Origin: Candidatus Margulisiibacteriota bacterium
Lineage (GTDB): Bacteria > Margulisbacteria > WOR-1 > O2-12-FULL-45-9 > XYB2-FULL-48-7
DNA: 64,000 nt
Direction of reading: 5' to 3'
Assembly (NCBI GenBank): GCA_041661965.1
Contig: JBAZTH010000001.1
Coordinates: 226,710-290,709, forward strand
Below are positions 3,175 to 34,748 of this stretch, piece after piece; within the stretch, counting starts at the first letter, position 1; every line of letters starts with the position of its first letter. A program made the position numbers and the translations under genes. Under the pieces are notes generated by a model. That model ran no database searches. It was not told the origin of the DNA and saw nothing but the letters and a program-made list of their open reading frames with translations.

Positions 3175-5154
3175 ATGAGAAAGGTGATGGTCGCCGGGTT
3201 TTGCCTGGCCCTCCTATGCGGATGCGCTATGAATAATAAAGCTCTCGATCTTAATAACCTCGACACCTCCGTTAAACCGGGGGCCGATTTTTATCGCTAT
3301 GCCATCGGCAACTGGCAGAAAAACAACCCGATCCCGGCCGAGTACAGCAGTTGGGGGAGCTTTGTCATCCTGGGAGAAGAGAACCTTATAACCCTGCGGG
3401 AGATTATGGAGACGGGCAAAGGACAAGTCGGCGATTTCTACGCCAGCGGGATGGACGAGAAAAAGATCGAAAAGGCGGGGATCAAGCCGCTGGCCGATGA
3501 ACTCGCCCGGATCGAAGCGATCAATGATCTGAAGGGATTAACTCTGGCGGTGGCGCATCTCCACCAGTACAGCGCCGATCCGCTCTTCCATATCTTTGTT
3601 GGTCCCGATTATGCCAATAGCGATCTCAATATTGCCGAATTATACCAAGGAGGACTCAATCTCCCTGACCGGGACTACTACCTCAAAGATGATAAATACT
3701 CGAAAGAAATTCGGGCCAAATACCAGCAGTACGTGACTAAGATGTTTATGTTAATGGGAGCGGTAAAGGCGGAGGCAGAGGCGAAAGCCAAGGTGGTCTT
3801 GAAGATCGAAACCGGTTTGGCGAAGATCTCCCGTGATAAAGTCGCCCTCCGCGATCCCCGGAAAAACTACAACCCGCTCTCGTTAAAGACCCTGGCGAAG
3901 CTCGCTAATAAGTTCGATTGGCCCCTCTATTTTCAGACGATCGGCCTGAAAAAACCGGGGAAGATCAATGTCGGCCAGCCGGAATTTTTTGCCGGGCTCA
4001 ATCAGCTTATGGCGACGGTCACGATTGCCGACTGGCGGACCTATTTAACCTTCACCCTGGTCAACGATAACGCCGAGTTCTTGAGCTCGGCATTTGTTAA
4101 TGAAGAGTTTAACTTTTACGGCCGGACCCTGAACGGCAACAAGGTCCTGATGCCCCGCTGGAAACGGGTGGTGGGGACGGTCAACGCCTATCTCGATCAG
4201 GCGGTTGGCCGCTTGTTTGTGAAAGAGCGGTTTTCTCCCCAGGCTAAGAGCCGGGCGGGAGAGATGGTGCGCAACATCCGGGCCGCTTTTAAGAAACGGC
4301 TGGCGGCTCTCGATTGGATGACCGATAAAACTAAAAAAGAGGCCTTTAAGAAGTTGGCGGCGATGACCTTTAAGATCGGCTATCCGGGGAAATGGCGGGA
4401 ATACAAGTTTAAAGTTGAGCGGGGAGAATACCTGGCCAATGTTTTCCGGGGAAATTATTTCGATTTTCATTACGAGCTGAATAAGGTGGGGAAGAAGGTT
4501 GACCGCAACGAGTGGGGGATGCCGGTCCAGATCGTTAATGCCGGTTACATGCCAACTCGTAACGAGATGCTTTTCCCGGCCGGGATCCTCCAACCCCCGT
4601 TCTTTAACGCCGCGGCCGACGATCCGGTCAATTACGGTGCGATCGGGATGGTGATCGCCCACGAAATGACCCACGGCTTTGACGACCAGGGGAGGAAGTT
4701 TGATAAGCGGGGGAACCTGAAGGATTGGTGGACCAAGCAGGACGAGGTTAATTTTAAGGCCAAGGCGAAGGCGGTTGTCGAGCAGGCCGAAGCTTTTGAA
4801 CAATTCCCCGGAATGCCGCTCAACGGGGAGCTGACTTTAGGTGAGAATATAGCTGACCTTGGCGGGGTGAGCATTTCCCATGATGCCCTCCAGTTTGCTT
4901 TAGGGAAGAAAAAACAACCGCTCCTCGACGGTCTGACCCCGGAACGGCGCTTTTTCTTGTCATATGCCGAGGTCTGGAAGACCAATATGCGCGACGAGCG
5001 GGCCAAGCTTTTAGTGAAGGTCGATCCCCATGCCCCGGCGAAATACCGGGTCAACGGCCCCTTAAGCAATCTCCCAGAATTCTACGCCGCCTTCAATATC
5101 GCCTCGAATGAAGCGATGTTCCGTCCGGAAGCGAAACGGGCCAAGGTTTGGTAG
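3175..5154 (+). CDS. pepO: M13-family zinc metallopeptidase (PepO/neprilysin-like), probably a lipoprotein
   Basis: HEMTHGFD (HExxH), GENIADLGG and ExxxD motifs. The N-terminus has an LLCGC lipobox-like signal. Confidence 0.85.
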   Translation: MRKVMVAGFCLALLCGCAMNNKALDLNNLDTSVKPGADFYRYAIGNWQKNNPIPAEYSSWGSFVILGEENLITLREIMETGKGQVGDFYASGMDEKKIEKAGIKPLADELARIEAINDLKGLTLAVAHLHQYSADPLFHIFVGPDYANSDLNIAELYQGGLNLPDRDYYLKDDKYSKEIRAKYQQYVTKMFMLMGAVKAEAEAKAKVVLKIETGLAKISRDKVALRDPRKNYNPLSLKTLAKLANKFDWPLYFQTIGLKKPGKINVGQPEFFAGLNQLMATVTIADWRTYLTFTLVNDNAEFLSSAFVNEEFNFYGRTLNGNKVLMPRWKRVVGTVNAYLDQAVGRLFVKERFSPQAKSRAGEMVRNIRAAFKKRLAALDWMTDKTKKEAFKKLAAMTFKIGYPGKWREYKFKVERGEYLANVFRGNYFDFHYELNKVGKKVDRNEWGMPVQIVNAGYMPTRNEMLFPAGILQPPFFNAAADDPVNYGAIGMVIAHEMTHGFDDQGRKFDKRGNLKDWWTKQDEVNFKAKAKAVVEQAEAFEQFPGMPLNGELTLGENIADLGGVSISHDALQFALGKKKQPLLDGLTPERRFFLSYAEVWKTNMRDERAKLLVKVDPHAPAKYRVNGPLSNLPEFYAAFNIASNEAMFRPEAKRAKVW

Positions 5155-16155: not shown

Positions 16156-16827
16156 TTACTCCTGAAGGGCCGTGATGACCGCTTGGGCGAACTCTTCGGC
16201 CGCTTCAGCTCCGCTGCCGGTTACAACCTTGCCATCAGTTTCGACCGCCCGGCCGGTAACGTTAACGCCGACACCTTTAAGCGCCCGCTTGCCGTAAAGC
16301 GAAACCGCCGCTTTCTTCCCTTTACCGAGCGCGCCGCCGTTCACCAAGGCGATGGGGGCGAGGGAGAGGCCGCCGATGACCTTATCTTCTTTGACCGCTT
16401 TAGCGATCAGGCCGGTCGCTGTTTCGCTATGGTTATAAACGGTTACCCCTGGTCCGCCGATGAAAATAAGGGCGTCATAATCGGCCGCTTTGGCGTTCTT
16501 CAGGAGCCCGCAATTGACTTTAGCGCCAAACACGCCGTAAGCGGTTTTCGTGGTTGAGGCAACGGAGACCAGCAGGCCGGCCTCTTCAAAGGTCTTTTTA
16601 ACCGCGGCAAATTCTTTATCGTCAAATTTACTGGGAGCGACAACGAGCAGGACCTTTTTCCCTTCAACGGACGAACCCGCTTCCGCGGTCGCTTCTCCGG
16701 AGACGAGCTCAACTTTTAAGATCTCGAGCTTATAGTCATCCTTGGGAGCGGGACCGCCCATCGCGGAGACCGGACCGGCAATCAACAAAGCACAGAAACA
16801 AAGAGACAGCGCAGCAATTCTTTTCAT
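16156..16827 (-). CDS. DJ-1/PfpI-family protein with signal peptide
   Basis: Signal peptide, then a class I glutamine amidotransferase-like fold (VLLVVAP, DALIFIGGPG). Confidence 0.5.
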   Translation of the reverse strand: MKRIAALSLCFCALLIAGPVSAMGGPAPKDDYKLEILKVELVSGEATAEAGSSVEGKKVLLVVAPSKFDDKEFAAVKKTFEEAGLLVSVASTTKTAYGVFGAKVNCGLLKNAKAADYDALIFIGGPGVTVYNHSETATGLIAKAVKEDKVIGGLSLAPIALVNGGALGKGKKAAVSLYGKRALKGVGVNVTGRAVETDGKVVTGSGAEAAEEFAQAVITALQE

Positions 16828-17165
16828 TTTACTTCATTCCTCCCGTTTACTTTTACTATCTTGGCCTTCAAGGCCTTTGCTTCCTTTAGCGTTGCCAGGG
16901 CGTAGGCGATAATGACGACTTTTTCCCCCTTATGTCCGAGCTTGGCGGCCGGACCGCGGAGCGAGATCTCGCCCGGCCGGCCTTCGATCACGTAAGTCTC
17001 GAAGCGGTGGCTGTTGTCGAAATTAAGGACGTGGACCTTTTCCCCCGGGACCAGGCCGGCCGCTTTGATCAGCTTTTTGTCGATGGCGATGCTCCCCTCG
17101 TAATAGGGGTGAGTGTCGGTCACGGTCGCCATATGAATCTTTGATTTTAAAACGGAAATCAGCAT
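16824..17165 (-). CDS. panD: Aspartate 1-decarboxylase
   Basis: MLISVLKSKIHMATVT...YEGSIAID matches the PanD N-terminus and pyruvoyl-processing Gly-Ser site. I place the start at ATG 17165 (the track ORF extends to 17279). Confidence 0.8.
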   Translation of the reverse strand: MLISVLKSKIHMATVTDTHPYYEGSIAIDKKLIKAAGLVPGEKVHVLNFDNSHRFETYVIEGRPGEISLRGPAAKLGHKGEKVVIIAYALATLKEAKALKAKIVKVNGRNEVK

Positions 17166-17245
17166 CTCTTTGAGTATAGCGAAAAAGCCTTGATATTTCA
17201 AGGAATAAGCTGAAAGCTTAAAGCAATAAGCGGAAACCGTCCTCT

Positions 17246-17279
17246 TGGAAGCCAGCGACAGTATCGTCGCGGCTTCCAA
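17246..17279. repeat. Hairpin A-family element (GGAAGCC-a-GCGAC-agtatc-GTCGC-g-GCTTCC) in the panD / 17302 divergent intergenic region
   Basis: Same nested two-stem architecture as hairpins at 22358, 24006 and 32944, with compensatory base changes. A TATAAT -10 follows at about 17291. Confidence 0.45.
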
Positions 17280-17301
17280 AAAATATCGTGATATAATTTA
17301 G

Positions 17302-17634
17302 ATGGACATGAGATTAATAACGATTGGCCTGATATGTTTGCTTGCGATTTCTCCAGTCTTGGCGACTACGGCTGAAGTGGCCGCTGCCGTGCCGGCTCCT
17401 GTCGTGGCCAGCACTGAAGCCAAGCCGGCCAATTTTTTGACCGAATTTGATATTGTTTTTTGGCAAACTGCTCCTTTTGCCGCTCTCTGGACCTATGTGT
17501 TCGATCGGCTCATTTTTTCTTCTCAACCGGTTCATTGGGACGCGATCGGTATTTTAGGGACGGTGATCTCGGTCGGCAACGCTTCTATCCGGGCGAATAA
17601 GGCAACGCATGATCGAAATTGGCGAAGTTATTAA
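17302..17634 (+). CDS. Hypothetical secreted or membrane protein
   Basis: N-terminal signal-like hydrophobic segment. TATAAT lies immediately upstream, so the transcript may be leaderless. Confidence 0.3.
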   Translation: MDMRLITIGLICLLAISPVLATTAEVAAAVPAPVVASTEAKPANFLTEFDIVFWQTAPFAALWTYVFDRLIFSSQPVHWDAIGILGTVISVGNASIRANKATHDRNWRSY

Positions 17635-17986
17635 GCTTGATGGCGGGCAAGCTGAAGTCCTTTTTCAGCGGAATCCGGCTTGCGGGAACTGCACCGCCTG
17701 CCGGGCCCAGGCGGACGGCACGCTAAAAACAATGGCCGACAACGCGATCGGCGCCAAACTTGGCGAGCGGGTCGAAGTGGAGTTTTCCAGCCGCTCCTTT
17801 GCCCGGGCGGCCCTAATCGTTTTTGGCCTGCCGGTGGTTTTGTTGTTCCTCGGATATTATCTGGGGGGGGTTCTTGGCGCGCTGCTTTTTCTCCTGGCCA
17901 GTTTTGGCCTGATCCTGATCCTGGACCGCTTTTTTTCGAAAAATAACGCACCGAGGATAATTGCCTTATGCACGAAGCGACCGTAG
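17609..17986 (+). CDS. RseC/MucC-family (SoxR-reducing system) protein
   Basis: CGNCTAC cysteine motif followed by two TM helices. Confidence 0.55.
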   Translation: MIEIGEVIKLDGGQAEVLFQRNPACGNCTACRAQADGTLKTMADNAIGAKLGERVEVEFSSRSFARAALIVFGLPVVLLFLGYYLGGVLGALLFLLASFGLILILDRFFSKNNAPRIIALCTKRP

Positions 17987-18321
17987 CTGAAGCGATTTTG
18001 AGTCTGGTCCTCCGCTCGATCCCGGAAGAGGTTGTTCGGGTCAAGCGGGTCAATCTGGTCGTTGGCGCTTTCGGCGGGGTGGAGAAAGAATCGCTCGACC
18101 TTTACTTTAACGCTTTAAGCCAGGGAACGAAAGCCGAAGGGGCGACGTTGGTTATGACGGTCAAGCCGGCCAAACTGACCTGCCGGAGCTGCGGGGAGCT
18201 CTCCTTCTACGATGGCCGGGAAAAACTCCGGGAGACCTGCCTTAAATGCGGCGGACCGAACCGGGTGGAAAAAGAAAAGCTGTTCTATATCGATAATATT
18301 GAGGTAGAAAATGAAAATTGA
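17968..18321 (+). CDS. hypA: Hydrogenase/nickel metallochaperone HypA
   Basis: MHE N-terminus and CxxC...CxxC zinc motif. Confidence 0.8.
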   Translation: MHEATVAEAILSLVLRSIPEEVVRVKRVNLVVGAFGGVEKESLDLYFNALSQGTKAEGATLVMTVKPAKLTCRSCGELSFYDGREKLRETCLKCGGPNRVEKEKLFYIDNIEVENEN

Positions 18322-18964
18322 AATTAAAAGATCTATCTTCGCGACCAACGATCAAGAAGCCGAAGCGGTCAGAAAGAAGCTGGCCGGGTTAGAATTGGCG
18401 GCGGTTAACCTCCTTGCTTCGCCGGGAGCGGGGAAGACCAGCCTCCTCCTTCGTCTGCTTGCTCTTCTCGCGCCGAAGATGGCGGTAGGGGTGATCGAAG
18501 GGGATGTTGCTTCGTCGATCGACGCTGAAAAGATCAAGGCGGCCGGTTACCCGGTCGTTCAGCTTAATACCGACGGCGGCTGTCACTTGAGCGCCGCCAT
18601 GATCGGTCCCGCCCTCGACCAATTGGGGCTCAAAGGACCGGGGATCGTCTTTATCGAGAATATCGGTAACCTGATCTGTCCGGCCGAGTTCGACCTGGGG
18701 GAGAGCCTCCGGCTGGTCGAAGCGAGCGTCCCGGAAGGGGACGATAAGCCGGTGAAGTACCCGGGGATTTTCCAGACCGCCGACGCGATCGTCGTTAACA
18801 AGATCGACCTCTTGGGGCAGGTCGAGTTCGATCCGGAGCTTTTTAACTCCCGGGTGAAGGTCTTAAACGACCGGGCACCGGTTTTTTCCGTCTCCTGCCG
18901 GGCCAATACCGGGCTCGAACCGCTGGCCGACTGGCTGATAAAGCAATTGACAAGAGGGCTCTAA
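18311..18964 (+). CDS. hypB: Nickel-incorporation GTPase HypB
   Basis: P-loop GSPGAGKT, CH motif and NKIDL G4 motif. Confidence 0.85.
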   Translation: MKIEIKRSIFATNDQEAEAVRKKLAGLELAAVNLLASPGAGKTSLLLRLLALLAPKMAVGVIEGDVASSIDAEKIKAAGYPVVQLNTDGGCHLSAAMIGPALDQLGLKGPGIVFIENIGNLICPAEFDLGESLRLVEASVPEGDDKPVKYPGIFQTADAIVVNKIDLLGQVEFDPELFNSRVKVLNDRAPVFSVSCRANTGLEPLADWLIKQLTRGL

Positions 18965-18980
18965 ATGTTAATATGGCCTC

Positions 18981-20324
18981 GTGAGAAGCTTTAATGGCGG
19001 CCTCCATCTTTCATATTATAAAGAGCTGACCAAAGAACGGCCGATCAAAGAAGCGGTCGCTCCGCGCCGGGTCATTCTCCCTTTGCAACAGAATTTAGGC
19101 TGTCCCTGCGATCCGCTGGTCGCGGTCGGCGACCTCGTTACCGAAGGTCAAAAGATCGCCGATTCCAAGCTCCTGATCTCCGCGCCGATCCACGCGCCGA
19201 TCTCCGGCCGGATCGCGGCCATTCAATACTATCCTAACGCCTGCGATTACGACGTGCCGTCGATTGTGATCGAAGCGACCGACTCGATCGACAAGGTAAC
19301 CCGTCCCGGGAGCCGCTGGACCTTTGACGAACTTTCCCCCGAACAGATCAAGAAGATCGTCCGCGAAGCCGGGATCGTCGGGCTTGGCGGCGCCGCTTTT
19401 CCGACCCACGTGAAGCTGACCCCCCCGGTCGGCAAGGCGATCGACGTGGTAATTATAAACGGCTGCGAATGCGAGCCCTATATTACCGCCGATTACCGGC
19501 TGATGGTCGAAAAAGCTTCGACCTTGATCCTGGGGGCTAAGGCGATCGCCAAAGCGGTCGGCGCCCGCCGGATCGTTTTCGGGATTGAGAACAATAAACC
19601 GGAGGCTCTCAAAGCGATCGACTTCGAGCGGTTGAAAACGCGGCAGATCTTCGCGATCACCGTTGCCGCTCTCCAGACGAAATATCCCCAGGGGGGCGAG
19701 AAAATGCTGATCAAAGCCCTTCTTAATCGAGAAGTTCCGACTGGCGGCTTGCCGTCCGATGTCGGCGCGGTCGTCAGCAATGTCGCCACCGCGATCGCCG
19801 TGGCCGAAGCGGTGACCCAAGGGGTCCCGCTGACCCGCCGGGTGGTGACCGTGACCGGTTCCGGCATTAAAGATCCGCAAAATCTGCTGGTCCGTTTGGG
19901 GACGACCTTTGCCGAAGTGATCGAGCAATGCCGCGGCTTGAACGATAACGTTGAAAAAGTCCTCATGGGAGGGCCGATGATGGGGCTGACCGTCCCGACC
20001 TTGGAGGTTCCCGTCGTTAAAGCGACGACCTGCATCCTGGCTTTAACCGATCAAGACATTTGCCGTTATCCGGAAGGGAACTGTATTCGCTGCGGCCGCT
20101 GCATCAAGGCCTGTCCGGTTGGGCTGACCCCGAACTTCCTGGCGGAGTTTGCCAAGACCGGAAATTGGTCGGAAGCCAACAACTACAATATCAGCGACTG
20201 TATCGAATGCGGTTGCTGTTCTTACATTTGTCCCAGCCGGATCCCGCTGGTCCAATATTTTAAGTTAGCCAAGAACGCCGTCCGATTGTTAAAATTAGCG
20301 GAGAAAAAAGCGGTATGCCGATAA
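18981..20324 (+). CDS. rnfC: Rnf complex subunit C
   Basis: Two 4Fe-4S ferredoxin motifs (CIRCGRCIKACP, CIECGCCSYICP), RnfC N-domain, GTG start. Confidence 0.85.
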   Translation: MRSFNGGLHLSYYKELTKERPIKEAVAPRRVILPLQQNLGCPCDPLVAVGDLVTEGQKIADSKLLISAPIHAPISGRIAAIQYYPNACDYDVPSIVIEATDSIDKVTRPGSRWTFDELSPEQIKKIVREAGIVGLGGAAFPTHVKLTPPVGKAIDVVIINGCECEPYITADYRLMVEKASTLILGAKAIAKAVGARRIVFGIENNKPEALKAIDFERLKTRQIFAITVAALQTKYPQGGEKMLIKALLNREVPTGGLPSDVGAVVSNVATAIAVAEAVTQGVPLTRRVVTVTGSGIKDPQNLLVRLGTTFAEVIEQCRGLNDNVEKVLMGGPMMGLTVPTLEVPVVKATTCILALTDQDICRYPEGNCIRCGRCIKACPVGLTPNFLAEFAKTGNWSEANNYNISDCIECGCCSYICPSRIPLVQYFKLAKNAVRLLKLAEKKAVCR

Positions 20325-21268
20325 ACAAATTGATCGTCCAGGTTGGTCCTCATATCAGGAGTAAAGAGGGGACCGATTACTTGATGCGGGCCTTTGCCTT
20401 TTCTTTGCTTTTCCCAACTATTGCCGGGACCTATTTCTTTGGCCTCAACGCCTTGGCCTTAGTCCTCTTTACCGGTTTCATGGCGGTCGCGGCGGAAGCC
20501 GTTTTCCAGCGGCTGGCCAAGCAACCGATCACGGTCCGGGACGGGAGCGCTTTTATTACCGGCGTTCTTTTAGGCCTGGTCCTGCCGCCTGGTTTTCCTT
20601 TCTGGATGGCCGGGATCGGCGCCATCTTTTCGATTGTCGTTGTCAAATGCTTGTTCGGCGGTTTGGGCTTTAATATTTTTAATCCCGCTTTGGCCGGCCG
20701 GGCCTTTCTGATGGCCTCCTGGCCGGTCGCCATGACCAGCTGGCTCCGGCCATTTGATGCTGTGACGACCGCGTCGCCGTTGTACCTGGCGAAGATCGGC
20801 GAGGCGGTCCCCGACTATTGGGCTCTTTTCCTGGGAAATCGGGCCGGTTCGATCGGGGAGACCTCGATTTTAATGATCCTGATCGCCGCCGCGTTTCTTT
20901 TCTGGAAAAAGATCATCGACTGGCCGGCTCCTGTCGCTTTTGTTGGAACCGTTTTTGTTTTATCCTATTTCCTCGGTCAGGACCCGCTCTTTCAGATCCT
21001 GACCGGCGGGCTTTTCTTCGGCGCGGTCTTTATGGCGACCGATTACGTGACCGGTCCGGTCACGCCGAAAGGTCGTTTTATTTTTGGTCTGGGTTGCGGT
21101 GTTTTTACGGTTTTGATCCGGTTTTACGGCGGGTTTCCTGAAGGGGTTAACTACGCGATCCTGCTGATGAATATTCTAACCCCGGTGATCGACAAATATA
21201 GCCTGCCTAAAATATATGGCAGCTTGCCTGCCGGGAGGCAGGCGAAAAAAAATGAAAAAAAACATTAA
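20315..21268 (+). CDS. rnfD: Rnf complex subunit D
   Basis: NqrB/RnfD-type polytopic membrane protein. Gene order CDGEAB is conserved. Confidence 0.85.
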   Translation: MPINKLIVQVGPHIRSKEGTDYLMRAFAFSLLFPTIAGTYFFGLNALALVLFTGFMAVAAEAVFQRLAKQPITVRDGSAFITGVLLGLVLPPGFPFWMAGIGAIFSIVVVKCLFGGLGFNIFNPALAGRAFLMASWPVAMTSWLRPFDAVTTASPLYLAKIGEAVPDYWALFLGNRAGSIGETSILMILIAAAFLFWKKIIDWPAPVAFVGTVFVLSYFLGQDPLFQILTGGLFFGAVFMATDYVTGPVTPKGRFIFGLGCGVFTVLIRFYGGFPEGVNYAILLMNILTPVIDKYSLPKIYGSLPAGRQAKKNEKKH

Positions 21269-21758
21269 AATGGCGGCGGTCCTGGCCCTCTTCTGCGTTA
21301 TTTCCGCCGGGTTGCTGGCCTACGTTTATAACGTGACCCAGCCATTGATCGTCCAAAATGCCAAGCGATCGTTTGATCTTTCATTAAAGAGGTTGATCCC
21401 GGCCGAGTCGTTCAAGCAAGAAAAAAATGCTTTTGTCGCGACCAAAGGGAAAGAGGTCGTCGGCTACGCTTTTGCCGTTAAACCGCAAGGTTACGGCGGC
21501 CCGGTCGAAATGCTGGTCGGTTTGGATAAAGAAGGGCGGGTCCTGGCCGTTAAGGTCTTAAGCCATAAAGAGACTGCCGGACTCGGCTCCAACATTGAAA
21601 ATCAGAAGTTTCTCCAACAATTCGTCGGTAAAACGGCACAAGATAAGATCGAGCCCAAACAAGATATTGATGCTTTGACCGGAGCGACGATCTCCACCCG
21701 GGCGGTCTGCTACGGCGTTCGGGAAGCGATCGACCAATGCTGGGAAATAATTAAATGA
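21252..21758 (+). CDS. rnfG: Rnf complex subunit G (FMN-binding)
   Basis: FMN-binding motif with a Thr acceptor (LTGATIST). Start placed at MKKNIKM. Confidence 0.8.
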   Translation: MKKNIKMAAVLALFCVISAGLLAYVYNVTQPLIVQNAKRSFDLSLKRLIPAESFKQEKNAFVATKGKEVVGYAFAVKPQGYGGPVEMLVGLDKEGRVLAVKVLSHKETAGLGSNIENQKFLQQFVGKTAQDKIEPKQDIDALTGATISTRAVCYGVREAIDQCWEIIK

Positions 21759-22345
21759 GCTTTTGGCAGGATTTTAATCGCGGGATAGTTTCGGAAAACC
21801 CGGTCCTCCGGCTGATGATCGGGCTTTGCCCGACTCTTGCCGTTTCGACCAGCGCCGTTAACGCCCTTGGGATGGCGGCGGCGACCTCCTTTGTCCTGAT
21901 CTTTTCTAATTTAGTCGTCGCCCTGATCCGCAAGATCGTTCCCGACCAGATCCGGATCCCAATCTTTATTATCGTCATCTCGACCTTTGTAACGATCATC
22001 GATTACGTCATGCAAGCTTATACCCCCGACCTGCACCATGCTCTCGGGGTCTTCATTCCGCTGATTGTCGTCAATTGCATTATCCTCGGCCGAGCGGAGG
22101 CCTTTGCCTACAAAAACCCGGTCCTCGCTTCGACCCTTGACGGGATCGGCATGAGCCTTGGTTTTACCCTGGCCCTTTTGGCAATCGGTTTGATCCGGGA
22201 ATTATTGGGAGCGGGAGCTGTTTTTGGCGTCTCGCTGTATAATCCGGCGGTCGCGGCGACGATCATGATTTTGCCGCCCGGCGCCTTCATAACCATCGGT
22301 TTCCTGATGGCCTTACTTAATAAACTGGAGAACAAAGTCCAATGA
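21755..22345 (+). CDS. rnfE: Rnf complex subunit E
   Basis: RnfE/NqrD-family membrane protein. Confidence 0.85.
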   Translation: MSFWQDFNRGIVSENPVLRLMIGLCPTLAVSTSAVNALGMAAATSFVLIFSNLVVALIRKIVPDQIRIPIFIIVISTFVTIIDYVMQAYTPDLHHALGVFIPLIVVNCIILGRAEAFAYKNPVLASTLDGIGMSLGFTLALLAIGLIRELLGAGAVFGVSLYNPAVAATIMILPPGAFITIGFLMALLNKLENKVQ

Positions 22346-22448
22346 GAAAATTTTACTGGAAACCTGCGGCAATATCGCCGCGGTTTCCAAGTTTTAAAGA
22401 GAAGGAGAGGATAACCGCGACGTTTAGTCGCAGGTTATCCGTCAGCCA
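22346..22448 (+). promoter_or_regulatory. Structured intergenic RNA element inside the rnf operon: hairpin A (22358-22388), AAGGAGAG, hairpin B (22409-22440), then the rnfA ATG
   Basis: Hairpin A is GGAAACC-t-GCGGC-aatatc-GCCGC-GGTTTCC. Hairpin B is GGATAACC-GCGAC-gttta-GTCGC-a-GGTTATCC. The same arrangement with compensatory substitutions precedes trpB2 at 32944-33038. Confidence 0.5.
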
Positions 22449-23030
22449 ATGAGTCAACTCTTAGGCATATTTTTTGCCGCTTTCCTGATCAACAACATTC
22501 TGCTGATCAGGTTCATTGCCTTATGTTCGTTCTTTGGGGTTTCGACCAAGCTGGAAACTTCACTGGGAATGAGCTCGGCGGTGATCTTTGTCATGACGAT
22601 CTCCTCTGCCGTTTCCTGGGTTGCGTACCATTCGGTCCTGGTTCCGTTCCACCTGGAATTTCTCCGGACGGCGGTCTTTATCCTGACGATCGCTTCGCTC
22701 GTCCAGCTGGAAGAGCTTTACCTGAAAAAGATGATCCCGTCGCTTTATCGGGCGATGGGGATCTATCTCCCGCTCATTACTACTAATTGCGCCATTTTGG
22801 CGGTCGCTTTTCTGGCGATCGATTACCGTTACACTTTTATCCAGTCGCTGGTTTATTCGCTCGGGGTTTCCGGTGGTTATTCACTGGCGATAATTTTATT
22901 CGCTTATCTCCGGGAGCGGACCGCCCTGGCGCCGGTCCCGAAATGGTTCCAGGGGTATCCGATCGCTTTTCTGACGGCGGCGCTGATGTCGCTCGCCTTC
23001 CTGGGCTTTACGAGGATGTTCGGGCTATGA
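22449..23030 (+). CDS. rnfA: Rnf complex subunit A
   Basis: RnfA/NqrE-family membrane protein. Confidence 0.85.
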   Translation: MSQLLGIFFAAFLINNILLIRFIALCSFFGVSTKLETSLGMSSAVIFVMTISSAVSWVAYHSVLVPFHLEFLRTAVFILTIASLVQLEELYLKKMIPSLYRAMGIYLPLITTNCAILAVAFLAIDYRYTFIQSLVYSLGVSGGYSLAIILFAYLRERTALAPVPKWFQGYPIAFLTAALMSLAFLGFTRMFGL

Positions 23031-23812
23031 CGATATTTTTAACTTCAATCATAATTTTAGGCGTTTTGGGATTTATCTTTGCCGCACTGCTGGCCCTGGC
23101 GGCCGATTATTTCCAGGTCAAGACCGATCCGAAGATCGAAGCGATCTTGGCGATCCTGCCGGGGGCCAATTGCGGCGCCTGCGGCGCGGCCGGCTGTCAT
23201 AATTTCGCGGAAAAAGTCGTGAACGGCGAGATCGCCGTCAGCGGTTGCGTGGTAGGGGGAAAAGATGTCGCCGAAAAGGTCGGCGCGATCATGGGAATTG
23301 CGCTCCCGACCGACTATCGGAAAACGATCGCCGCCGTCCATTGCGGCGCCACGGAAAAAATCCGCCGGCGGGTCAACCGCTATGAAGGGGTCGCCAAGTG
23401 CGCCGCCGCTAATTTGGTGAACGGGGGAGGCTTAGCTTGCTCTTACGGCTGCCTCGGCTTCGGCGATTGCGACTGCATTTGTCCCTTTGACGCGATCAAG
23501 ATGATTGACGGGTTGCCGCAGATCGATCCTGACAAATGCACCTCTTGCGGTAAGTGCGTGGCTGTTTGCCCGCGCCGGATCATCTCCATTATTCCTCATG
23601 ATTTTGGCGCGGTGATCGCCTGTTCCTCAAAGGATCCTGGAGCGGTCGTCCGTAAGATCTGTCCGGTCGGTTGTATCGCTTGTAAGATCTGCGAAAAGGC
23701 GGTTCCCGAGGTTTATAAGGTCGTCGACAATTTGGCGGTCATCGATTATACGGTCAAGGGGGTTGATCCGGCTCCGGCGATCGAAAAATGTCCGACGAAG
23801 TGTATTAAATAG
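23027..23812 (+). CDS. rnfB: Rnf complex subunit B (ferredoxin-like)
   Basis: N-terminal TM helix plus multiple Cys clusters (CGACGAAGC, CxxCxxC). Start at MTIFLTS overlaps the rnfA stop as ATGA. Confidence 0.85.
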   Translation: MTIFLTSIIILGVLGFIFAALLALAADYFQVKTDPKIEAILAILPGANCGACGAAGCHNFAEKVVNGEIAVSGCVVGGKDVAEKVGAIMGIALPTDYRKTIAAVHCGATEKIRRRVNRYEGVAKCAAANLVNGGGLACSYGCLGFGDCDCICPFDAIKMIDGLPQIDPDKCTSCGKCVAVCPRRIISIIPHDFGAVIACSSKDPGAVVRKICPVGCIACKICEKAVPEVYKVVDNLAVIDYTVKGVDPAPAIEKCPTKCIK

Positions 23813-23824
23813 GAGGGGTTAATT

Positions 23825-23989
23825 ATGAAGTGTGACAATGGCGCGGTTTATGGATTGGGTGTCATCGGGGCTTTGGTCTATTATATTCAGCATTCGACCA
23901 GTTTTTGGGGTGGGGTCATCGGAATATTAAAGGCGATCGTCTGGCCGGCGATGCTGATCTATCGTCTCCTTGAATCGTTGAAGATGTAG
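23825..23989 (+). CDS. Small 54-aa hydrophobic protein downstream of rnfB
   Basis: AGGAGG SD 7 nt upstream of the ATG. Two predicted TM helices. Absent from the track because it is under 60 aa. Confidence 0.35.
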   Translation: MKCDNGAVYGLGVIGALVYYIQHSTSFWGGVIGILKAIVWPAMLIYRLLESLKM

Positions 23990-24005
23990 TGGCGATTTGC
24001 TTAGA

Positions 24006-24078
24006 CTAGGAAACCTGCGGCAATATCGCCGCGGTTTCCTAGTTTTATTTTAACCGCCCCGATCGGATCGGGGCGGTT
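24006..24078 (+). terminator. Rho-independent terminator of the rnf operon (hairpin A-family copy plus U-tract), followed by a second perfect 13-bp palindrome
   Basis: CTAGGAAACCTGCGGCAATATCGCCGCGGTTTCCTAG then GTTTTATTTT; then AACCGCCCCGATC-g-GATCGGGGCGGTT. Confidence 0.55.
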
Positions 24079-24125
24079 AAATTGGAAGCCAAAACGATCT
24101 TTCCCTCAAAGTAGTAGAATATTAT

Positions 24126-24761
24126 ATGAAAACAACTTGCCCCTTATGCTCTTCAACTGCCGAAACATTCCAAGAACACCGCGGGACCATATTCTATAAA
24201 TGTAGCGGCTGTCGGTCCGTCTTCCGTGATCCGGGAAATGACCTCTCACCAGCCGAAGAGAAAAAACGTTATGAAGCCCACCACAACGACCCAGCCGACC
24301 CTGGTTATCAGGCGTATGTCTCGCCGATTGTGAAGGCGGTGACCCAACGCTTTAAGCCGGGCGATCAGGGACTTGATTTTGGGGCCGGTCCCGGTGCGAT
24401 CATTACTACTTTATTGCGTGAACAAGGGTATCAGGTGGAGTCGTATGATCCGTTTTTTCACGACAATCGAGAGAGTTTAAAGCAAGCCTACGATTATATC
24501 GTTTGTTCCGAGGTGGTTGAGCATTTTCGCTCCCCGGCCAAAGAGTTTGCCCTGCTTCGTTCGCGGCTTAAACCGGGCAGCGCCCTTTTTTGTCTGACGA
24601 GATTGTACGAAGAGGGGCTGGATTTTTCGACCTGGTTTTACAAGAATGACCCGACCCATCGGTTTTTTTATAGCCGCCAGGCGTTGGAGTGGATCAAAAC
24701 AAAATTTGATTTTTCTTCATTGGAGATCGAAGGGCGGCTGATCAGTCTTGCCGTTCTTTAA
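24126..24761 (+). CDS. Class I SAM-dependent methyltransferase with N-terminal zinc-ribbon-like CxxC...CxxC
   Basis: Motif I LDFGAGPG and a post-I acidic residue. N-terminus has CPLCSS...CSGC. Confidence 0.55.
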   Translation: MKTTCPLCSSTAETFQEHRGTIFYKCSGCRSVFRDPGNDLSPAEEKKRYEAHHNDPADPGYQAYVSPIVKAVTQRFKPGDQGLDFGAGPGAIITTLLREQGYQVESYDPFFHDNRESLKQAYDYIVCSEVVEHFRSPAKEFALLRSRLKPGSALFCLTRLYEEGLDFSTWFYKNDPTHRFFYSRQALEWIKTKFDFSSLEIEGRLISLAVL

Positions 24762-32100: not shown

Positions 32101-32895
32101 TTACCATGATATCTCCTTAGCGTCGAAGACCGGTCCGTCTTTGCAAACCATCTTGTAGCCGCTGCGGGTCGCGACGGCACAGCCGAGACAGGCGCCGATC
32201 CCGCAGGCCATCTTTTCTTCCATGGAGACCTGGCAGTCGATCTGCCGCTCCTGGGCGATCTCGGCGACCGCTTTAAGCATCCCCTTCGGGCCGCAGGCGT
32301 AGATCGCCGTTTCCGGATAGTGGCGCGTCTCCAGCGTGTTGTTTAGCAGGTTGAGGAGGAGGTCGGAGACGTAACCTTTGCGGCCATAACTTCCGTCGTC
32401 GGTGGCGATGACTTTTTCATTGGCCAGGTCGGCGAAGTCGGTTTCGCAGAGGAGAGAGCTTTTATCGCGGGCGCCGGCCAGGGCGTAGACCGCCCGTCCG
32501 CCGAGTGTTTTTAATTGTTGGGCGAGGGAGAGGAGTGGGGCGACCCCCATCCCGCCGCCGACCAGGACGGCGATCTTTTTCTCCGGGTCGAGCTTAAAGC
32601 CGCTGCCGAGCGGCCCCAGGATATCGAGCTTGGCGCCGACGGTGACTTTGGAGAGGAGTTCTGTCCCCTGGCCGAGGACTTCGTAAAGAAGTTCAAAGGT
32701 CTGGTGTTCCCGGTTGATCTTGTGGAGGCTGATCGGCCGTCGCAGCAGCGGTTCAGTCCCGCTATCAACCCGGACATTGACGAATTGGCCCGGTTCGGCG
32801 TTAGTGGTTATGTATAGGGATTTGATCGTCAGCTTGTAATATCGAGGGCCAACTTGCTTATGGTCGAGGACTTGGCACTGTTCTTGTGTCGCCAT
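32101..32895 (-). CDS. pyrK: Dihydroorotate dehydrogenase electron-transfer subunit (FAD/2Fe-2S)
   Basis: FNR-like fold with a C-terminal CGIGACLGC cluster motif. Confidence 0.85.
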   Translation of the reverse strand: MATQEQCQVLDHKQVGPRYYKLTIKSLYITTNAEPGQFVNVRVDSGTEPLLRRPISLHKINREHQTFELLYEVLGQGTELLSKVTVGAKLDILGPLGSGFKLDPEKKIAVLVGGGMGVAPLLSLAQQLKTLGGRAVYALAGARDKSSLLCETDFADLANEKVIATDDGSYGRKGYVSDLLLNLLNNTLETRHYPETAIYACGPKGMLKAVAEIAQERQIDCQVSMEEKMACGIGACLGCAVATRSGYKMVCKDGPVFDAKEISW

Positions 32896-32943: not shown

Positions 32944-33110
32944 GCCAGGAAACCGGCGAATAAACTTCGCGGTTTCCTGGCAAAAGGAGAGAATAAACGG
33001 TAACCGCGACGTTTAGTCGCAGGTTACCGTTAGCAATGAATGGCTTTCCTGGCATTATTTTGCTAAAATAACTTTTAACCGCTGAATTTATTCGCGGGAT
33101 ATGGAGGAAA
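32944..33110 (+). promoter_or_regulatory. Structured 5-prime leader of trpB2: hairpin A', AAAAGGAGAG, hairpin B, an 11-codon mini-ORF, then segments complementary to hairpin A'
   Basis: Hairpin A' at 32944-32981 (GCCAGGAAACC...GGTTTCCTGGC with inner GCGAA/TTCGC). Hairpin B at 32998-33029. Mini-ORF MNGFPGIILLK at 33036-33071. GGCTTTCCTGGCA at 33042-33054 and TTTATTCGCGG at 33085-33097 can pair back with hairpin A' 5-prime sequences. Confidence 0.45.
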
Positions 33111-34464: not shown

Positions 34465-34466
34465 AA

Positions 34467-34540
34467 TGGAGCCGAGGGGGATCGAACCCCTGACCTCTAG
34501 AATGCAAATCTAGCGTTCTCCCAGCTGAACTACGGCCCCA
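34467..34540 (-). tRNA. tRNA-Cys (GCA)
   Basis: Reverse complement folds as a cloverleaf: acceptor GGGGCCG/CGGCTCC, D-arm TAGTTCAGCTGGGAGAACG, anticodon stem CTAGA/TCTAG with loop TTTGCAT, T-arm GGGGTTCGATCCCC. CCA is not encoded. Confidence 0.85.
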
Positions 34541-34560: not shown

Positions 34561-34682
34561 AACTTTTCGAATTGATCTAAACATTCTCCCAGTCCCGACG
34601 ATCCACCGCAGGTGGATGTCGGGATCCCGATGATTCCATAATTATTAAAAATAATGATCATCGGGACTGAACTACGGCCCCA
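34561..34682 (-). pseudogene. Degenerate second tRNA-Cys copy with two palindromic insertions in the D-loop
   Basis: Reverse complement reads GGGGCCGTAGTTCAG, then [TCCCGATGAT...ATCATCGGGA], then [TCCCGACATCCACC-tgc-GGTGGATcGTCGGGA], then CTGGGAGAA, followed by a degenerated anticodon/T region (..AGTTCGATC). Confidence 0.4.
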
Positions 34683-34748
34683 TTTGAGAATTGATTATAG
34701 CTTATTTTTAGAGTCAGAGGCAAGAATGGTGGCGAATCCAACCATTTA

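What the first reader, a model, noticed from the sequence alone, without database searches (positions are those of the whole stretch)
17246..24078. Hairpin A-family copies also act as an intra-operon structure and as the rnf terminator
Four copies of the nested hairpin A architecture exist, at 17246-17279, 22358-22388, 24006-24042 and 32944-32981. Copy 24006 is followed by GTTTTATTTT and is a plausible intrinsic terminator for rnfCDGEAB plus the 54-aa ORF. Copy 22358 has a weaker U-tract (AAGTTTTAAAG) inside the operon, which suggests partial termination or differential expression of rnfAB versus rnfCDGE. Copy 17246 (GGAAGCC/GCGAC variants, again compensatory) sits in a divergent promoter region. 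One structural module is reused in different contexts, like a REP-type element with regulatory roles.
Basis: seen in the sequence. Interest (0 to 1): 0.5.

Follow-up and report, generated by a model that had tools for sequence, protein, structure and literature searches.

The report
Mobile palindromic repeats in Saganbacteria
The four hairpins are copies of a short mobile palindromic DNA repeat (REP-like) found across genomes of the uncultivated Saganbacteria, probably spread by an IS200-type transposase; only one copy looks usable as a transcription terminator, so this is an ordinary kind of element in a lineage where I found no description of it.

Summary
Four hairpin-A copies sit at the stated places (0 of 100 shuffles give four), each folding at -23 to -30 kcal/mol.

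The module is a clade-wide repeat of Candidatus Saganbacteria/Margulisiibacteriota. I found 211 strict copies in 872 kb of their MAG loci, with covarying outer stems, a conserved bulged T, conserved loops, and 70 inverted doublets against 2 of the opposite arrangement.

Ten loci carry a Y1 (IS200-type, HUH/Y intact) transposase gene bracketed by these hairpins, apparently low-copy and partly syntenic. This is REP/REPIN-RAYT-like behaviour.

The rnfE-rnfA doublet is a lineage-specific 107-nt insertion into an otherwise overlapping ATGA junction. It is absent from the closest relatives and from 77 of 80 related rnf loci. It is not a conserved rnf regulator.

Only copy 24006 has a U-tract (TTTTATTTT). 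Across the family, T-tails occur in 17% of copies against a 10% background.

Verdict: a REP-type mobile element. The regulatory roles are unproven, and a terminator role is plausible for one copy only. It is a new member of a known kind.

The parts
17244..17280 (+). REP-like hairpin, copy 1. A singleton of the GGAAGCC/GCGAC variant with a 6-nt loop AGTATC. It lies in the divergent panD / orf110 intergenic region, just upstream of a conserved extended -10 (TGATATAAT, 17289-17297).
   Evidence: R1 scores 44.5 bits, E=1e-10. The fold is -24 kcal/mol. The hairpin is absent at the orthologous site of close relative L215, which keeps the same -10 box.
22355..22391 (+). REP-like hairpin, copy 2. It is the left half of an inverted doublet inserted between the rnfE stop (22343-22345) and the rnfA start (22449).
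   Evidence: R1 scores 44.1 bits. The fold is -22.8 kcal/mol. The core 31-mer is identical to that of copy 3.
22402..22409 (+). Shine-Dalgarno-like AAGGAGAG in the doublet spacer. It is the only SD-like sequence upstream of rnfA and is separated from the ATG by hairpin B.
   Evidence: Read directly from the sequence. The same motif sits in the spacer of the second doublet (32984-32991) and in the L125 and L137 inserts.
22407..22442 (-). It is the same module on the opposite strand and forms the right half of the rnfE-rnfA doublet.
   Evidence: R1 scores 43.7 bits on the - strand against 8.9 on the + strand. The fold is -22.3 kcal/mol.
22339..22346 (+). First copy of the 8-bp direct repeat CCAATGAG that flanks the 99-nt insert. 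The second copy is at 22446-22453. The first keeps the rnfE stop codon and the second supplies the rnfA start codon.
   Evidence: Filled versus empty site comparison with L209, L213 and L215. Longest shared flank word is 8 nt.
24006..24042 (+). REP-like hairpin, copy 3, lying 16 nt after the stop of the 54-aa ORF that ends the rnf cluster. Flanking bases extend the stem to 24003-24045, and TTTTATTTT follows at 24043-24051. It is a plausible co-opted intrinsic terminator.
   Evidence: R1 scores 47 bits. The fold is -29.8 kcal/mol. It passes the T-tail criterion. It is present in L215 and absent in L213 and L214.
24049..24081 (.). Hairpin C, a perfect palindrome TTTAACCGCCCCGATC-G-GATCGGGGCGGTTAAA. 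It is a variant partner of copy 3 and has no T-tail on either strand.
   Evidence: The fold is -25.8 kcal/mol. R1 does not recognise it. One analogous TTAACCGC...GCGGTTAA palindrome lies next to a 6-nt-loop hairpin in L090.
32945..32980 (+). REP-like hairpin, copy 4. It is the left half of a doublet in the divergent intergenic region between the pyrK-like gene (32101-32895, -) and the PALP gene (33115, +).
   Evidence: R1 scores 53.1 bits. The fold is -28.6 kcal/mol.
32996..33031 (-). REP-like hairpin forming the right half of the second doublet. An ATG at 33036, four nucleotides downstream, opens an 11-codon mini-ORF.
   Evidence: R1 scores 54.9 bits on the - strand. The fold is -24.8 kcal/mol.
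33076..33101 (-). Probable decayed third copy (TAACCGCTGAATTTATTCGCGGGATA).
   Evidence: It is 73% identical to the hairpin B core (family D13). The fold is weak, at -8.4 kcal/mol and z = -1.85. R1 does not detect it.

Best explanation
**What it is.** The hairpins are members of a REP-like (repetitive extragenic palindrome) family specific to Candidatus Saganbacteria/Margulisiibacteriota.

**The unit.** It is about 30-36 nt long: GGAAACC, a bulged T, GCGAC, a loop TRAAC or ARTATC, GTCGC, then GGTTTCC. It usually occurs as an inverted doublet, with one copy followed 0-25 nt later by its reverse complement. This matches the BIME/REPIN arrangement.

**How it spreads (inferred).** The units are probably propagated as single-stranded DNA hairpins by an IS200-type Y1 (HUH) transposase. 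That gene looks low-copy, and in every examined genome it is bracketed by a sense hairpin upstream and an antisense hairpin immediately after its stop codon. This parallels how RAYT enzymes are thought to act on REPs.

**What is shown:**
- family membership
- stem covariation
- the doublet architecture
- the transposase association
- insertion polymorphism

**What is inferred:**
- that this transposase mobilises the hairpins
- every effect on RNA

**In this window.**
- One doublet was inserted into the formerly overlapping rnfE/rnfA stop-start junction.
- One copy, with a variant partner, lies downstream of the rnf cluster.
- One copy and one doublet lie in divergent promoter regions.

**Expected effects on expression.** These would be by-products of position.
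- The rnfE-rnfA doublet is transcribed inside the operon. It would form two stable stem-loops that uncouple rnfA translation from rnfE. The only SD-like sequence sits in the doublet spacer, about 10 nt from the ATG once hairpin B folds.
- Copy 24006 happens to be followed by a U-tract and can plausibly terminate rnf transcription.
For: **Observation.** Searches confirm the four copies and their folds.

**Distribution across the clade.**
- About 107 of these are from Saganbacteria/Margulisiibacteriota/WOR-1 MAGs, including 19 stretches from one MAG.
- All but one of the hits from other phyla lack the inner-stem complementarity, so they look like chance matches.

**Family features.**
- 211 strict copies in 872 kb of those loci.
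- The bulge is T in 79% of copies.
- The loops are TRAAY or ARTATC.
- Outer-stem pairs that my selection did not constrain still covary, for example AU 60 / GC 17 at one pair and AU 54 / GC 19 / UA 4 at another.
- Three further variable flank pairs are paired in 57-79% of copies.
- There are 70 '+-' doublets against 2 '-+'.

**Transposase.**
- Pfam Y1_Tnp matches at E = 1e-21 to 1e-27.
- NCBIfam IS200/IS605 scores 67-79 bits against a cut-off of 55.
- The gene lies in six loci of six different MAGs captured only by the hairpin pattern.
- Four further metagenomic loci carry it too.
- All ten have an antisense hairpin 3-15 nt after the stop and a sense hairpin or doublet upstream.
- HUH and Y/Q residues are invariant in 20 homologues. 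At least 12 annotated ORFs read through the downstream hairpin, giving 'KPRRLVAGFQ' tails.
- Each 90%-identity cluster is seen on only 1-2 contigs.
- ligA-x-tnpA-spoU synteny holds in three genomes. tnpA identity there is 79-81%, against 65-81% for SpoU and 79% for LigA.

**Mobility.**
- A 139-bp unit containing a doublet occurs at least 8 times at 100% identity in one MAG.
- The rnfE-rnfA gap is -4 to 20 nt in most of 26 close relatives. It is an ATGA overlap in the closest ones: L209, L213, L214 and L215.
- The window, L125 and L137 carry the 93-103 nt insert, and they do not cluster in an RnfA tree.
- The copy-3 site is filled in L215 and empty in L213 and L214, although all three share an identical RnfA.
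- Short-read contigs break inside the copies: both ends of L002 and the end of L215.
Against: - No transposase gene lies in this window.
- No experiment links the enzyme to the hairpins.
- By HMM the enzyme is IS200-type and falls below the curated RAYT cut-off (42-56 bits against 80).
- The hairpins lack the unpaired GTAG or CGTC tag that defines most described REPs.
- At four of the transposase loci the nearest upstream hairpin has the same orientation as the downstream one. That is IS200/IS605-like rather than RAYT-like.
- The rnfE-rnfA insert is flanked by an 8-bp direct repeat. IS200/IS605-type transposition does not produce such repeats.
- Copy number per complete genome could not be counted.
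- 20.5 kb of the complete relative genome MEUD01 around rnf holds no copy, so density is uneven.
- Gene-context statistics rest on crude ORF calls.
Confidence: 0.75

Rival explanations
1. Dedicated regulatory terminators or attenuators. The module would be a family of intrinsic terminators or partial terminators. The host would use it to set rnfCDGE versus rnfAB stoichiometry and to end the operon.
For: - The stems are strong.
- Copy 24006 has a proper U-tract.
- Copy 22358 is followed by UUUU.
- Both lie on the sense strand of the operon.
Against: - T-tails occur in 17% (sense) and 15% (antisense) of 209 copies, against a 10% background.
- Singletons show no strand bias, 7 sense against 10 antisense.
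- The rnfE-rnfA copy is absent from the closest relatives, where the genes overlap, and from 77 of 80 related rnf loci.
- No hairpin follows rnfB in the 80 related loci scanned. Among the four closest relatives only L215 has one there.
- Two of the four copies lie in divergent promoter regions with A-rich tails.
- The consensus terminator scan flagged none of the copies. That tool does not allow a bulged stem, so this point is weak.
Confidence: 0.08
2. A host-beneficial structured cassette acting at the RNA level. The doublets would be kept because they act in mRNA in one of two ways:
- as 3'-exonuclease barriers or processing sites, like E. coli REPs in malEFG
- as a portable translation-initiation module of hairpin, SD, hairpin, then start codon, in which folding of the second hairpin brings the SD to the right distance from the AUG
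For: - The SD-like AAGGAGA(G) lies in the spacer of both window doublets and of the L125 and L137 inserts. No SD lies between hairpin B and the ATG.
- With the hairpin folded, the SD-AUG spacing is about 7-13 nt in the window, L112, L046, L077 and L137.
- An SD-like tetramer in the spacer is co-oriented with the adjacent gene start in 12 cases and anti-oriented in 3, out of 28.
- Stems are maintained by compensatory change, including outside the conserved core.
Against: - The numbers are small and the gene calls crude.
- Many doublets have an ordinary SD after the second hairpin, or none at all.
- The SD-like motif could be a relic of the transposase gene's own ribosome-binding site.
- The doublets are polymorphic among near-identical strains.
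- No expression data exist.
Confidence: 0.15
3. Double-stranded DNA operator sites. The palindromes would be binding sites of a dimeric transcription factor or nucleoid protein that controls neighbouring promoters.
For: - The half-sites are palindromic with a conserved centre.
- Two window copies lie in divergent promoter regions.
- The 139-bp unit in one MAG lies 9 nt upstream of a TTGAC(A) -35-like box in 5 of 8 copies.
Against: - The conserved asymmetric bulge and the strand-specific model scores (44-55 bits against 9-22) point to a folded single strand.
- Doublet spacing varies from -5 to 25 nt, which is incompatible with phased operators.
- Copies sit inside operons and after genes.
- Variable flanks covary to extend the stem.
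- Identical dispersed copies and insertion polymorphism indicate mobility.
- The hairpins bracket a transposase gene.
Confidence: 0.03

Closest known systems
E. coli REP/BIME elements and their RAYT (TnpA_REP, RayT/YafM)
   Same: - Short imperfect palindromes with an obligatory irregularity in the stem.
- Pairs in inverted orientation.
- Location between genes, including inside operons.
- A Y1 HUH transposase gene bracketed by the repeats.

In E. coli the bulge is required for TnpA_REP binding (PMC3479197). Classical REP effects on mRNA stability and termination are the precedent for any RNA-level effect here. That last point rests on my own knowledge and on PMC3733652.
   Different: - There is no conserved unpaired GTAG tetranucleotide.
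- The irregularity is a single bulged T rather than a 2x2 mismatch.
- The enzyme scores as IS200-type, not RAYT, by NCBIfam. E. coli RayT detects it only at E about 3 by tblastn.
- The same consensus is shared by genomes whose transposases are only 40-60% identical.
[quoted passage not shown] 2017
   Same: - Inverted REP doublets as the dominant unit.
- Identical dispersed copies in a genome.
- A transposase that looks low-copy and vertically inherited, diverging at about the rate of neighbouring housekeeping genes.

Bertels et al. describe an IS200-clade group with abundant flanking 16-mers and no duplication (PMC5581495).
   Different: - Membership of that particular IS200 group was not tested.
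- The two halves of a doublet each fold on their own as strong hairpins, rather than needing each other.
- Spacers are very short, 0-25 nt.
IS200/IS605 family (IS608, ISDra2) subterminal hairpins and their ORF-less derivatives (PATEs)
   Same: - The transposase belongs to this family by Pfam and NCBIfam.
- Recognition of imperfect hairpins with an extrahelical base on one DNA strand is the family's hallmark. This point rests on my own knowledge and on PMC3479197.
- At four loci the hairpins nearest the gene on either side share one orientation, like LE and RE.
   Different: - The dispersed units are inverted doublets or single hairpins, not LE...RE pairs in direct orientation.
- There is no conserved guide or target tetranucleotide next to the hairpin foot.
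- The transposase gene does not appear multi-copy.
Rho-independent (intrinsic) terminators
   Same: Copy 24006 has a GC-rich stem-loop followed directly by TTTTATTTT.
   Different: - The family as a whole has no U-tract.
- The stem is long (18 bp with a bulge).
- The loop and bulge are sequence-conserved, which terminators do not need.

Membership tests
REP / BIME / REPIN (repetitive extragenic palindromes) | Short (20-40 nt) imperfect palindrome able to form a stable stem-loop | tested here: met
   The unit is 30-36 nt with a 12-bp stem and a 1-nt bulge. Folds are -23 to -30 kcal/mol, z about -7. 91% of cells are paired across 81 distinct copies.
REP / BIME / REPIN (repetitive extragenic palindromes) | Many dispersed copies per genome, mostly extragenic | tested here: inconclusive
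   There are 6 copies in this 64-kb window, all intergenic. No whole genome could be counted. 20.5 kb of the complete relative genome around rnf holds none. My crude ORF calls put 91 of 213 copies outside called intergenic regions. Part of this comes from spurious or over-extended ORFs.
REP / BIME / REPIN (repetitive extragenic palindromes) | Units paired in inverted orientation with a short spacer | tested here: met
   There are 70 '+-' doublets against 2 '-+', with spacers of -5 to 25 nt. Two such doublets lie in the window.
REP / BIME / REPIN (repetitive extragenic palindromes) | Unpaired GTAG or CGTC tag at one end (Di Nocera et al. 2013 super-families) | tested here: not met
   Information content in the flanks is at most 0.36 bit per position. 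GTAG or CGTC lies within 10 nt in at most 4 of 194 copies. The definition comes from PMC3733652.
REP / BIME / REPIN (repetitive extragenic palindromes) | A Y1 tyrosine transposase gene flanked by the repeats | tested here: met
   Ten loci carry the gene. Each has an antisense hairpin 3-15 nt after the stop and a sense hairpin or doublet upstream. At least 12 of 20 homologues have ORF tails that translate the hairpin.
RAYT (REP-associated tyrosine transposase) protein family | Sequence membership (NCBIfam NF047646, cut-off 80 bits) | tested here: not met
   Scores are 42-56 bits, below the cut-off, while E. coli RayT scores 179 bits. The proteins pass the IS200/IS605 model NF033573 instead, at 67-79 bits against 55.
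RAYT (REP-associated tyrosine transposase) protein family | Single copy per genome, vertically inherited | tested here: inconclusive
   Each 90% cluster is seen on 1-2 contigs. One copy was found per MAG among the captured loci. Synteny with spoU and ligA holds in 3 genomes with housekeeping-like divergence. Other homologues sit in different neighbourhoods. No complete genome was surveyed.
IS200/IS605 family Y1 transposase | Y1_Tnp domain with an HUH motif and a catalytic Tyr | tested here: met
   Pfam PF01797 matches at E = 1e-21 to 1e-27. H50-V51-H52, Y114 and Q118 are invariant in 20 homologues.
Intrinsic (Rho-independent) terminator | GC-rich stem-loop followed directly by a U-rich tract (at least 5 T in 8 nt, starting 0-2 nt after the stem) | tested here: inconclusive
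   Copy 24006 meets it. Copies 17246, 22358 and 32944 do not. Across the family the rate is 17% against a 10% background. Whether termination actually occurs cannot be tested with these tools.
Known RNA families (Rfam 15) | Match to a curated covariance model | tested here: not met
   At gathering thresholds the only hit in the window is a tRNA. At E <= 1 across 22300-24150 nothing overlaps the hairpins.

The most novel reading that the evidence does not exclude
The doublet would be more than a passive REP. It would be a mobile "operon-splitting" cassette that lands in overlapping stop/start junctions (ATGA) and keeps both genes alive.

**How it would work:**
- The junction sequence is present on both sides of the insert (CCAATGAG here, AAATGA in L047).
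- The cassette brings its own Shine-Dalgarno sequence between the two hairpins.
- Folding of the second hairpin places the SD next to the regenerated start codon.

**Consequence.** Translational coupling would be replaced by structure-dependent initiation. Either this IS200-type system creates target duplications, or it carries a start-codon-containing end that matches its target.
Probability: 0.12. Interest if true: 0.6.

Novelty: new member of a known kind. Interest (0 to 1): 0.35.

Why it matters
**For the window.** The repeated hairpins are explained, and they should not be read as a conserved rnf regulatory device.

**For the field.**
- It would add a REP/REPIN-like system from an uncultivated sister lineage of Cyanobacteria. 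My two literature searches found no paper describing one there.
- The transposase is IS200-type by sequence. Its genomic behaviour is RAYT-like: bracketed by abundant palindromes, apparently low-copy, partly syntenic.
- The palindrome lacks the GTAG/CGTC tags and is conserved across widely diverged genomes.
- This bears on whether domestication of Y1 transposases happened more than once.

**Practical points.**
- The repeat breaks short-read assemblies of these MAGs.
- It makes gene callers extend ORFs through hairpins, giving 'KPRRLVAGFQ' tails and an over-long panD.

Tried and rejected
It found nothing. The true spacing is 16-17 nt.
2. **Rfam.** There was no family at gathering thresholds or at E <= 1.
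3. **Association with gene starts.** I first thought the elements avoided convergent intergenic regions. Against a baseline from the same loci, hairpins occupy 10% of tandem, 9% of convergent and 18% of divergent regions (p = 0.09), so I dropped the idea.
4. **Orientation relative to transcription.** Singletons split 7 sense to 10 antisense, which is not significant. Doublets are symmetric under reverse complement and carry no information.
5. **A general target-site duplication.** The longest shared word between left and right flanks averages 4.96 nt against 4.74 in the null. There is no family-wide signal, only outliers: the window (8 nt), L082 (12 nt) and L047 (6 nt).
6. **A conserved target or guide motif next to the hairpin.** None was found.
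7. **E. coli RayT as a probe.** It gave only E = 2.6-8 hits. These were still the lead to the real Y1 genes.
8. **Genes lying between the upstream hairpin and tnpA.** They are unrelated to one another, apart from a weak NucS_C match in one, so I did not treat them as part of the system.
9. **The consensus terminator scan.** It flagged none of the copies. It cannot handle a bulged stem, so I applied the T-tail criterion by script instead.
10. **One orthologous ancient insert at rnfE-rnfA in the window, L125 and L137.** The RnfA tree does not group them. A 193-aa protein resolves poorly, so independent insertion versus repeated loss stays open.

Full report
**1.

With the spacing left free, the motif GGAANCC...GGNTTCC occurs exactly four times in the 64 kb. 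All four are on the + strand: 17247-17277, 22358-22388, 24009-24039 and 32948-32977. Dinucleotide-preserving shuffles give a mean of 0.22 and never reach four. My first try with a fixed 18-nt spacing found nothing, because the real spacing is 16-17 nt.

Each copy folds into four elements:
- a 7-bp outer stem
- a single bulged base on the 5' side
- a 5-bp inner stem
- a 5-6 nt loop

Free energies run from -22.8 to -29.8 kcal/mol, with z-scores of -6.6 to -7.9. Copies 2 and 3 share an identical 31-mer.

**2. "Hairpin B" is the same module on the other strand**

The hairpins at 22409-22440 and 32999-33030 have the bulge on the 3' side. Reverse-complemented, they read GGATAACC-T-GCGAC-TAAAC-GTCGC-GGTTATCC. 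That is the hairpin-A architecture, with the loop of copy 4.

A covariance model built from relatives (R1) finds six strong members in the window. Four are on + at 44-53 bits and two on - at 44-55 bits. The wrong strand of each scores only 9-22 bits, and nothing else exceeds 19 bits.

The window therefore holds:
- two inverted doublets, at rnfE-rnfA and upstream of the PALP gene
- two singletons, copy 1 and copy 3

Copy 3 is followed by a different perfect palindrome, hairpin C at 24049-24081. A decayed third copy probably lies at 33076-33101.

**3. It is a repeat family spread across the clade**

The window is a metagenome contig. NCBI holds its exact RnfA and RnfC sequences under Candidatus Margulisiibacteriota MAGs. 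The RnfA 90%-identity cluster includes the complete WOR-1 (Saganbacteria) genome MEUD01.

- About 107 are from Saganbacteria/Margulisiibacteriota/WOR-1 MAGs, up to 19 stretches from a single MAG.
- All but one of the hits from other phyla lack inner-stem complementarity and look like chance.

In 872 kb of those loci a strict scan finds 211 hairpins:
- The bulge is T in 79%.
- The loops are almost always TRAAY or ARTATC.

Outer-stem positions that my selection did not constrain covary cleanly, for example AU 60 / GC 17 and AU 54 / GC 19 / UA 4. Three further base pairs outside the conserved core are paired in 57-79% of copies, using all four pair types. The inner-stem pairing was imposed by my filter and is not evidence.

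The dominant arrangement is an inverted doublet. There are 70 with a 5'-bulge hairpin followed by its reverse-complement type, against 2 in the opposite order. Spacers run from -5 to 25 nt.

**4. A Y1 transposase gene is bracketed by the hairpins**

E. coli RayT as a tblastn probe gave only marginal hits, but three of them lay next to hairpins. The ORFs there are 128-148-aa proteins with a clear Y1_Tnp domain (E = 1e-21 to 1e-27).

| Evidence | Result |
|---|---|
| Loci captured purely by the hairpin pattern | 6 loci from 6 MAGs carry a homologue |
| Antisense hairpin after the stop | within 3-15 nt in all six |
| Upstream of the gene | a sense hairpin, a doublet, or a B-type hairpin |
| Independent metagenomic loci | 4 more with sense hairpin ... 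tnpA ... antisense hairpin, sometimes with an unrelated gene in between |
| Homologues in the large protein database | 34; every one that carries an organism name is from Margulisiibacteriota/Saganbacteria |
| Contigs per 90% cluster | 1-2 |
| Catalytic residues | HUH, Tyr and Gln invariant in 20 homologues |
| ORFs reading through the downstream hairpin | at least 12 of 20, giving 'KPRRLVAGFQ' tails |

In three genomes the gene sits in the same ligA-x-tnpA-spoU neighbourhood. Its identity there is 79-81%, similar to its neighbours (SpoU 65-81%, LigA 79%), which fits vertical inheritance.

By curated HMMs the protein is IS200/IS605-type (67-79 bits, cut-off 55). It falls below the RAYT cut-off (42-56 bits against 80). 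No copy lies in the window.

**5. The hairpins are mobile, or at least polymorphic**

- One MAG carries a 139-bp unit containing a doublet at least eight times at 100% identity, with unrelated flanks.
- In 26 close relatives (RnfA at least 82% identical) the rnfE-rnfA gap is -4 to 20 nt in most.
- In the closest relatives (RnfA at least 90%: L209, L213, L214, L215) the genes overlap as ATGA and there is no hairpin.
- Only the window, L125 and L137 carry the 93-103 nt doublet, and they do not group in an RnfA tree.
- The copy-1 site is empty in L215, although the adjacent extended -10 box is conserved.
- The copy-3 site is filled in L215 and empty in L213 and L214. Those two carry a different hairpin there, although all three encode an identical RnfA.
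- Short-read contigs end inside the copies, at both ends of L002 and at the end of L215.

**6. The terminator and regulator claims**

*Copy 24006.* It has an 18-bp bulged stem (-29.8 kcal/mol) followed at once by TTTTATTTT. It meets the usual sequence criteria for an intrinsic terminator and sits 16 nt after the last ORF of the cluster. That role is plausible but untested.

*Copy 22358.* It has only four T in the relevant window. Copies 1 and 4 have A-rich tails.

*The family.*
- 17% of copies have a T-rich tail on the hairpin strand and 15% on the other strand, against 10% at random positions.
- Singletons show no strand preference relative to flanking genes, 7 against 10.
- No intergenic class is significantly preferred.

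The module is therefore not built as a terminator, and the rnf operon of relatives does without it.

*The rnfE-rnfA insert.* It must be transcribed with the operon. It replaces translational coupling with about 100 nt containing two stable hairpins (-46.5 kcal/mol for the region). Any effect on the rnfAB to rnfCDGE ratio is a consequence of an insertion, not a conserved design.

**7. Most likely mechanism**

Shown:
- a palindromic repeat family
- stems maintained by covariation
- a conserved bulged T and conserved loops, which argue for sequence-specific recognition of a folded single strand
- the inverted-doublet organisation
- bracketing of an intact Y1 transposase gene
- presence/absence polymorphism, and identical dispersed copies

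Inferred: the Y1 enzyme binds the hairpins in single-stranded DNA and moves or copies them.
- This is the mechanism proposed for RAYT and REP, and demonstrated for IS608-type elements.
- In E. coli the stem irregularity is required for binding (PMC3479197).
- Doublets may be internal-deletion derivatives of the hairpin-tnpA-hairpin unit.
- That origin would also explain the SD-like motif in their spacers.

**8. Comparison with known systems**

It works like REP/BIME/REPIN-RAYT systems. It meets the palindrome, doublet and flanked-transposase features.

It differs in three ways:
- It fails the GTAG/CGTC tag that defines most described REPs. Flank information is at most 0.36 bit, and tags occur in at most 4 of 194 copies (PMC3733652).
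- Its enzyme is not a RAYT by sequence.
[quoted passage not shown] (PMC5581495). I did not test this.

No paper in the searchable library combines Saganbacteria with palindromic repeats. A second search returned no paper with both Margulisbacteria and RAYT or REPIN among those it listed.

I classify it as a new member of a known kind.

**9. Loose ends**

*A direct repeat at the insert.* An 8-bp direct repeat, CCAATGAG, flanks the rnfE-rnfA insert. It preserves the stop codon on one side and provides the start codon on the other.
- L047 shows AAATGA at a similar junction and L082 shows a 12-bp repeat. There is no family-wide duplication signal.
- The right flank of the second window doublet also reads AGCAATGA. 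The motif could therefore be an element end matching its target rather than a duplication.

*An SD-like motif in the spacers.* SD-like motifs in doublet spacers are co-oriented with the adjacent gene start in 12 cases and anti-oriented in 3. Several genes have no other SD. This hints at hairpin-bridged ribosome binding. The numbers are small and the gene calls crude.

Noticed in passing
window 22339-22346 and 22446-22453; also L047 about 6027 and L082 about 5386: The 99-nt doublet insert between rnfE and rnfA is flanked by an 8-bp direct repeat, CCAATGAG. The repeat keeps the rnfE stop codon and supplies the rnfA start codon. L047 has AAATGA duplicated at another stop/start junction, and L082 has a 12-bp flanking repeat. 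IS200/IS605-type transposition is not expected to make target duplications, and there is no family-wide signal.
   Followed up: partly
window 22402-22409 and 32984-32991; mini-ORF 33036-33071: Both doublets carry AAGGAGAG in the spacer, and an ATG lies 8 nt (rnfA) or 4 nt (an 11-codon mini-ORF, MNGFPGIILLK) after the second hairpin. rnfA has no other SD. Once the hairpin folds, the SD-AUG spacing becomes about 10 nt.
   Followed up: partly
L026, L036, L052 (two copies), L054, L066, L094, L110 (MAG JACRPM01): A 139-bp unit containing a doublet is 100% identical in at least 8 places. In 5 of 8 copies a TTGAC(A) -35-like box lies exactly 9 nt beyond its right end, often with a TATAAT further on. 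The element sits immediately upstream of promoters, or targets them.
   Followed up: partly
window 24049-24081; L090 about 4997-5022: A perfect palindrome of a different type, TTTAACCGC...GCGGTTAAA, lies next to a 6-nt-loop hairpin in two genomes. It may be a second, rarer partner type. The model does not recognise it.
   Followed up: partly
window 17289-17302 and 24113-24128: A -10-like box ends 4-5 nt before the annotated ATG in two places: the extended TGATATAAT before orf110, and TAGAAT before the methyltransferase gene. Both are conserved in relatives L215 and L213. This suggests leaderless or near-leaderless transcripts.
   Followed up: no
window 16824-17279 (-): The panD ORF as called (151 aa, TTG start) runs through hairpin copy 1. 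The Pfam domain starts at residue 39, and the N-terminus MLISVLKS begins at 17165, so the real gene is probably 16824-17165. Gene callers similarly extend the tnpA ORFs through the downstream hairpin, giving 'KPRRLVAGFQ' tails.
   Followed up: partly
window 34466-34540 (-) and 34667-34712: There is a tRNA-Ala(TGC) gene here. About 140 nt away, a 46-nt direct repeat at 74% identity starts with the same 17 nt as the 5' end of the tRNA. No second tRNA is detected there. It could be a partial tRNA duplication such as an integration scar.
   Followed up: partly
L016 5524-6618 (-), L205 3299-3943, L206 340-708: Unrelated genes lie between the upstream hairpin and tnpA in several genomes. One has a NucS_C-like nuclease domain. 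The bracketed segment seems to accept cargo.
   Followed up: partly
L018, L019, L006/L106: Some hairpin copies have a second GC-rich palindrome (CCTGCCGGCAGG-type) inserted in their loop. This suggests nested insertion of another small palindromic element.
   Followed up: no
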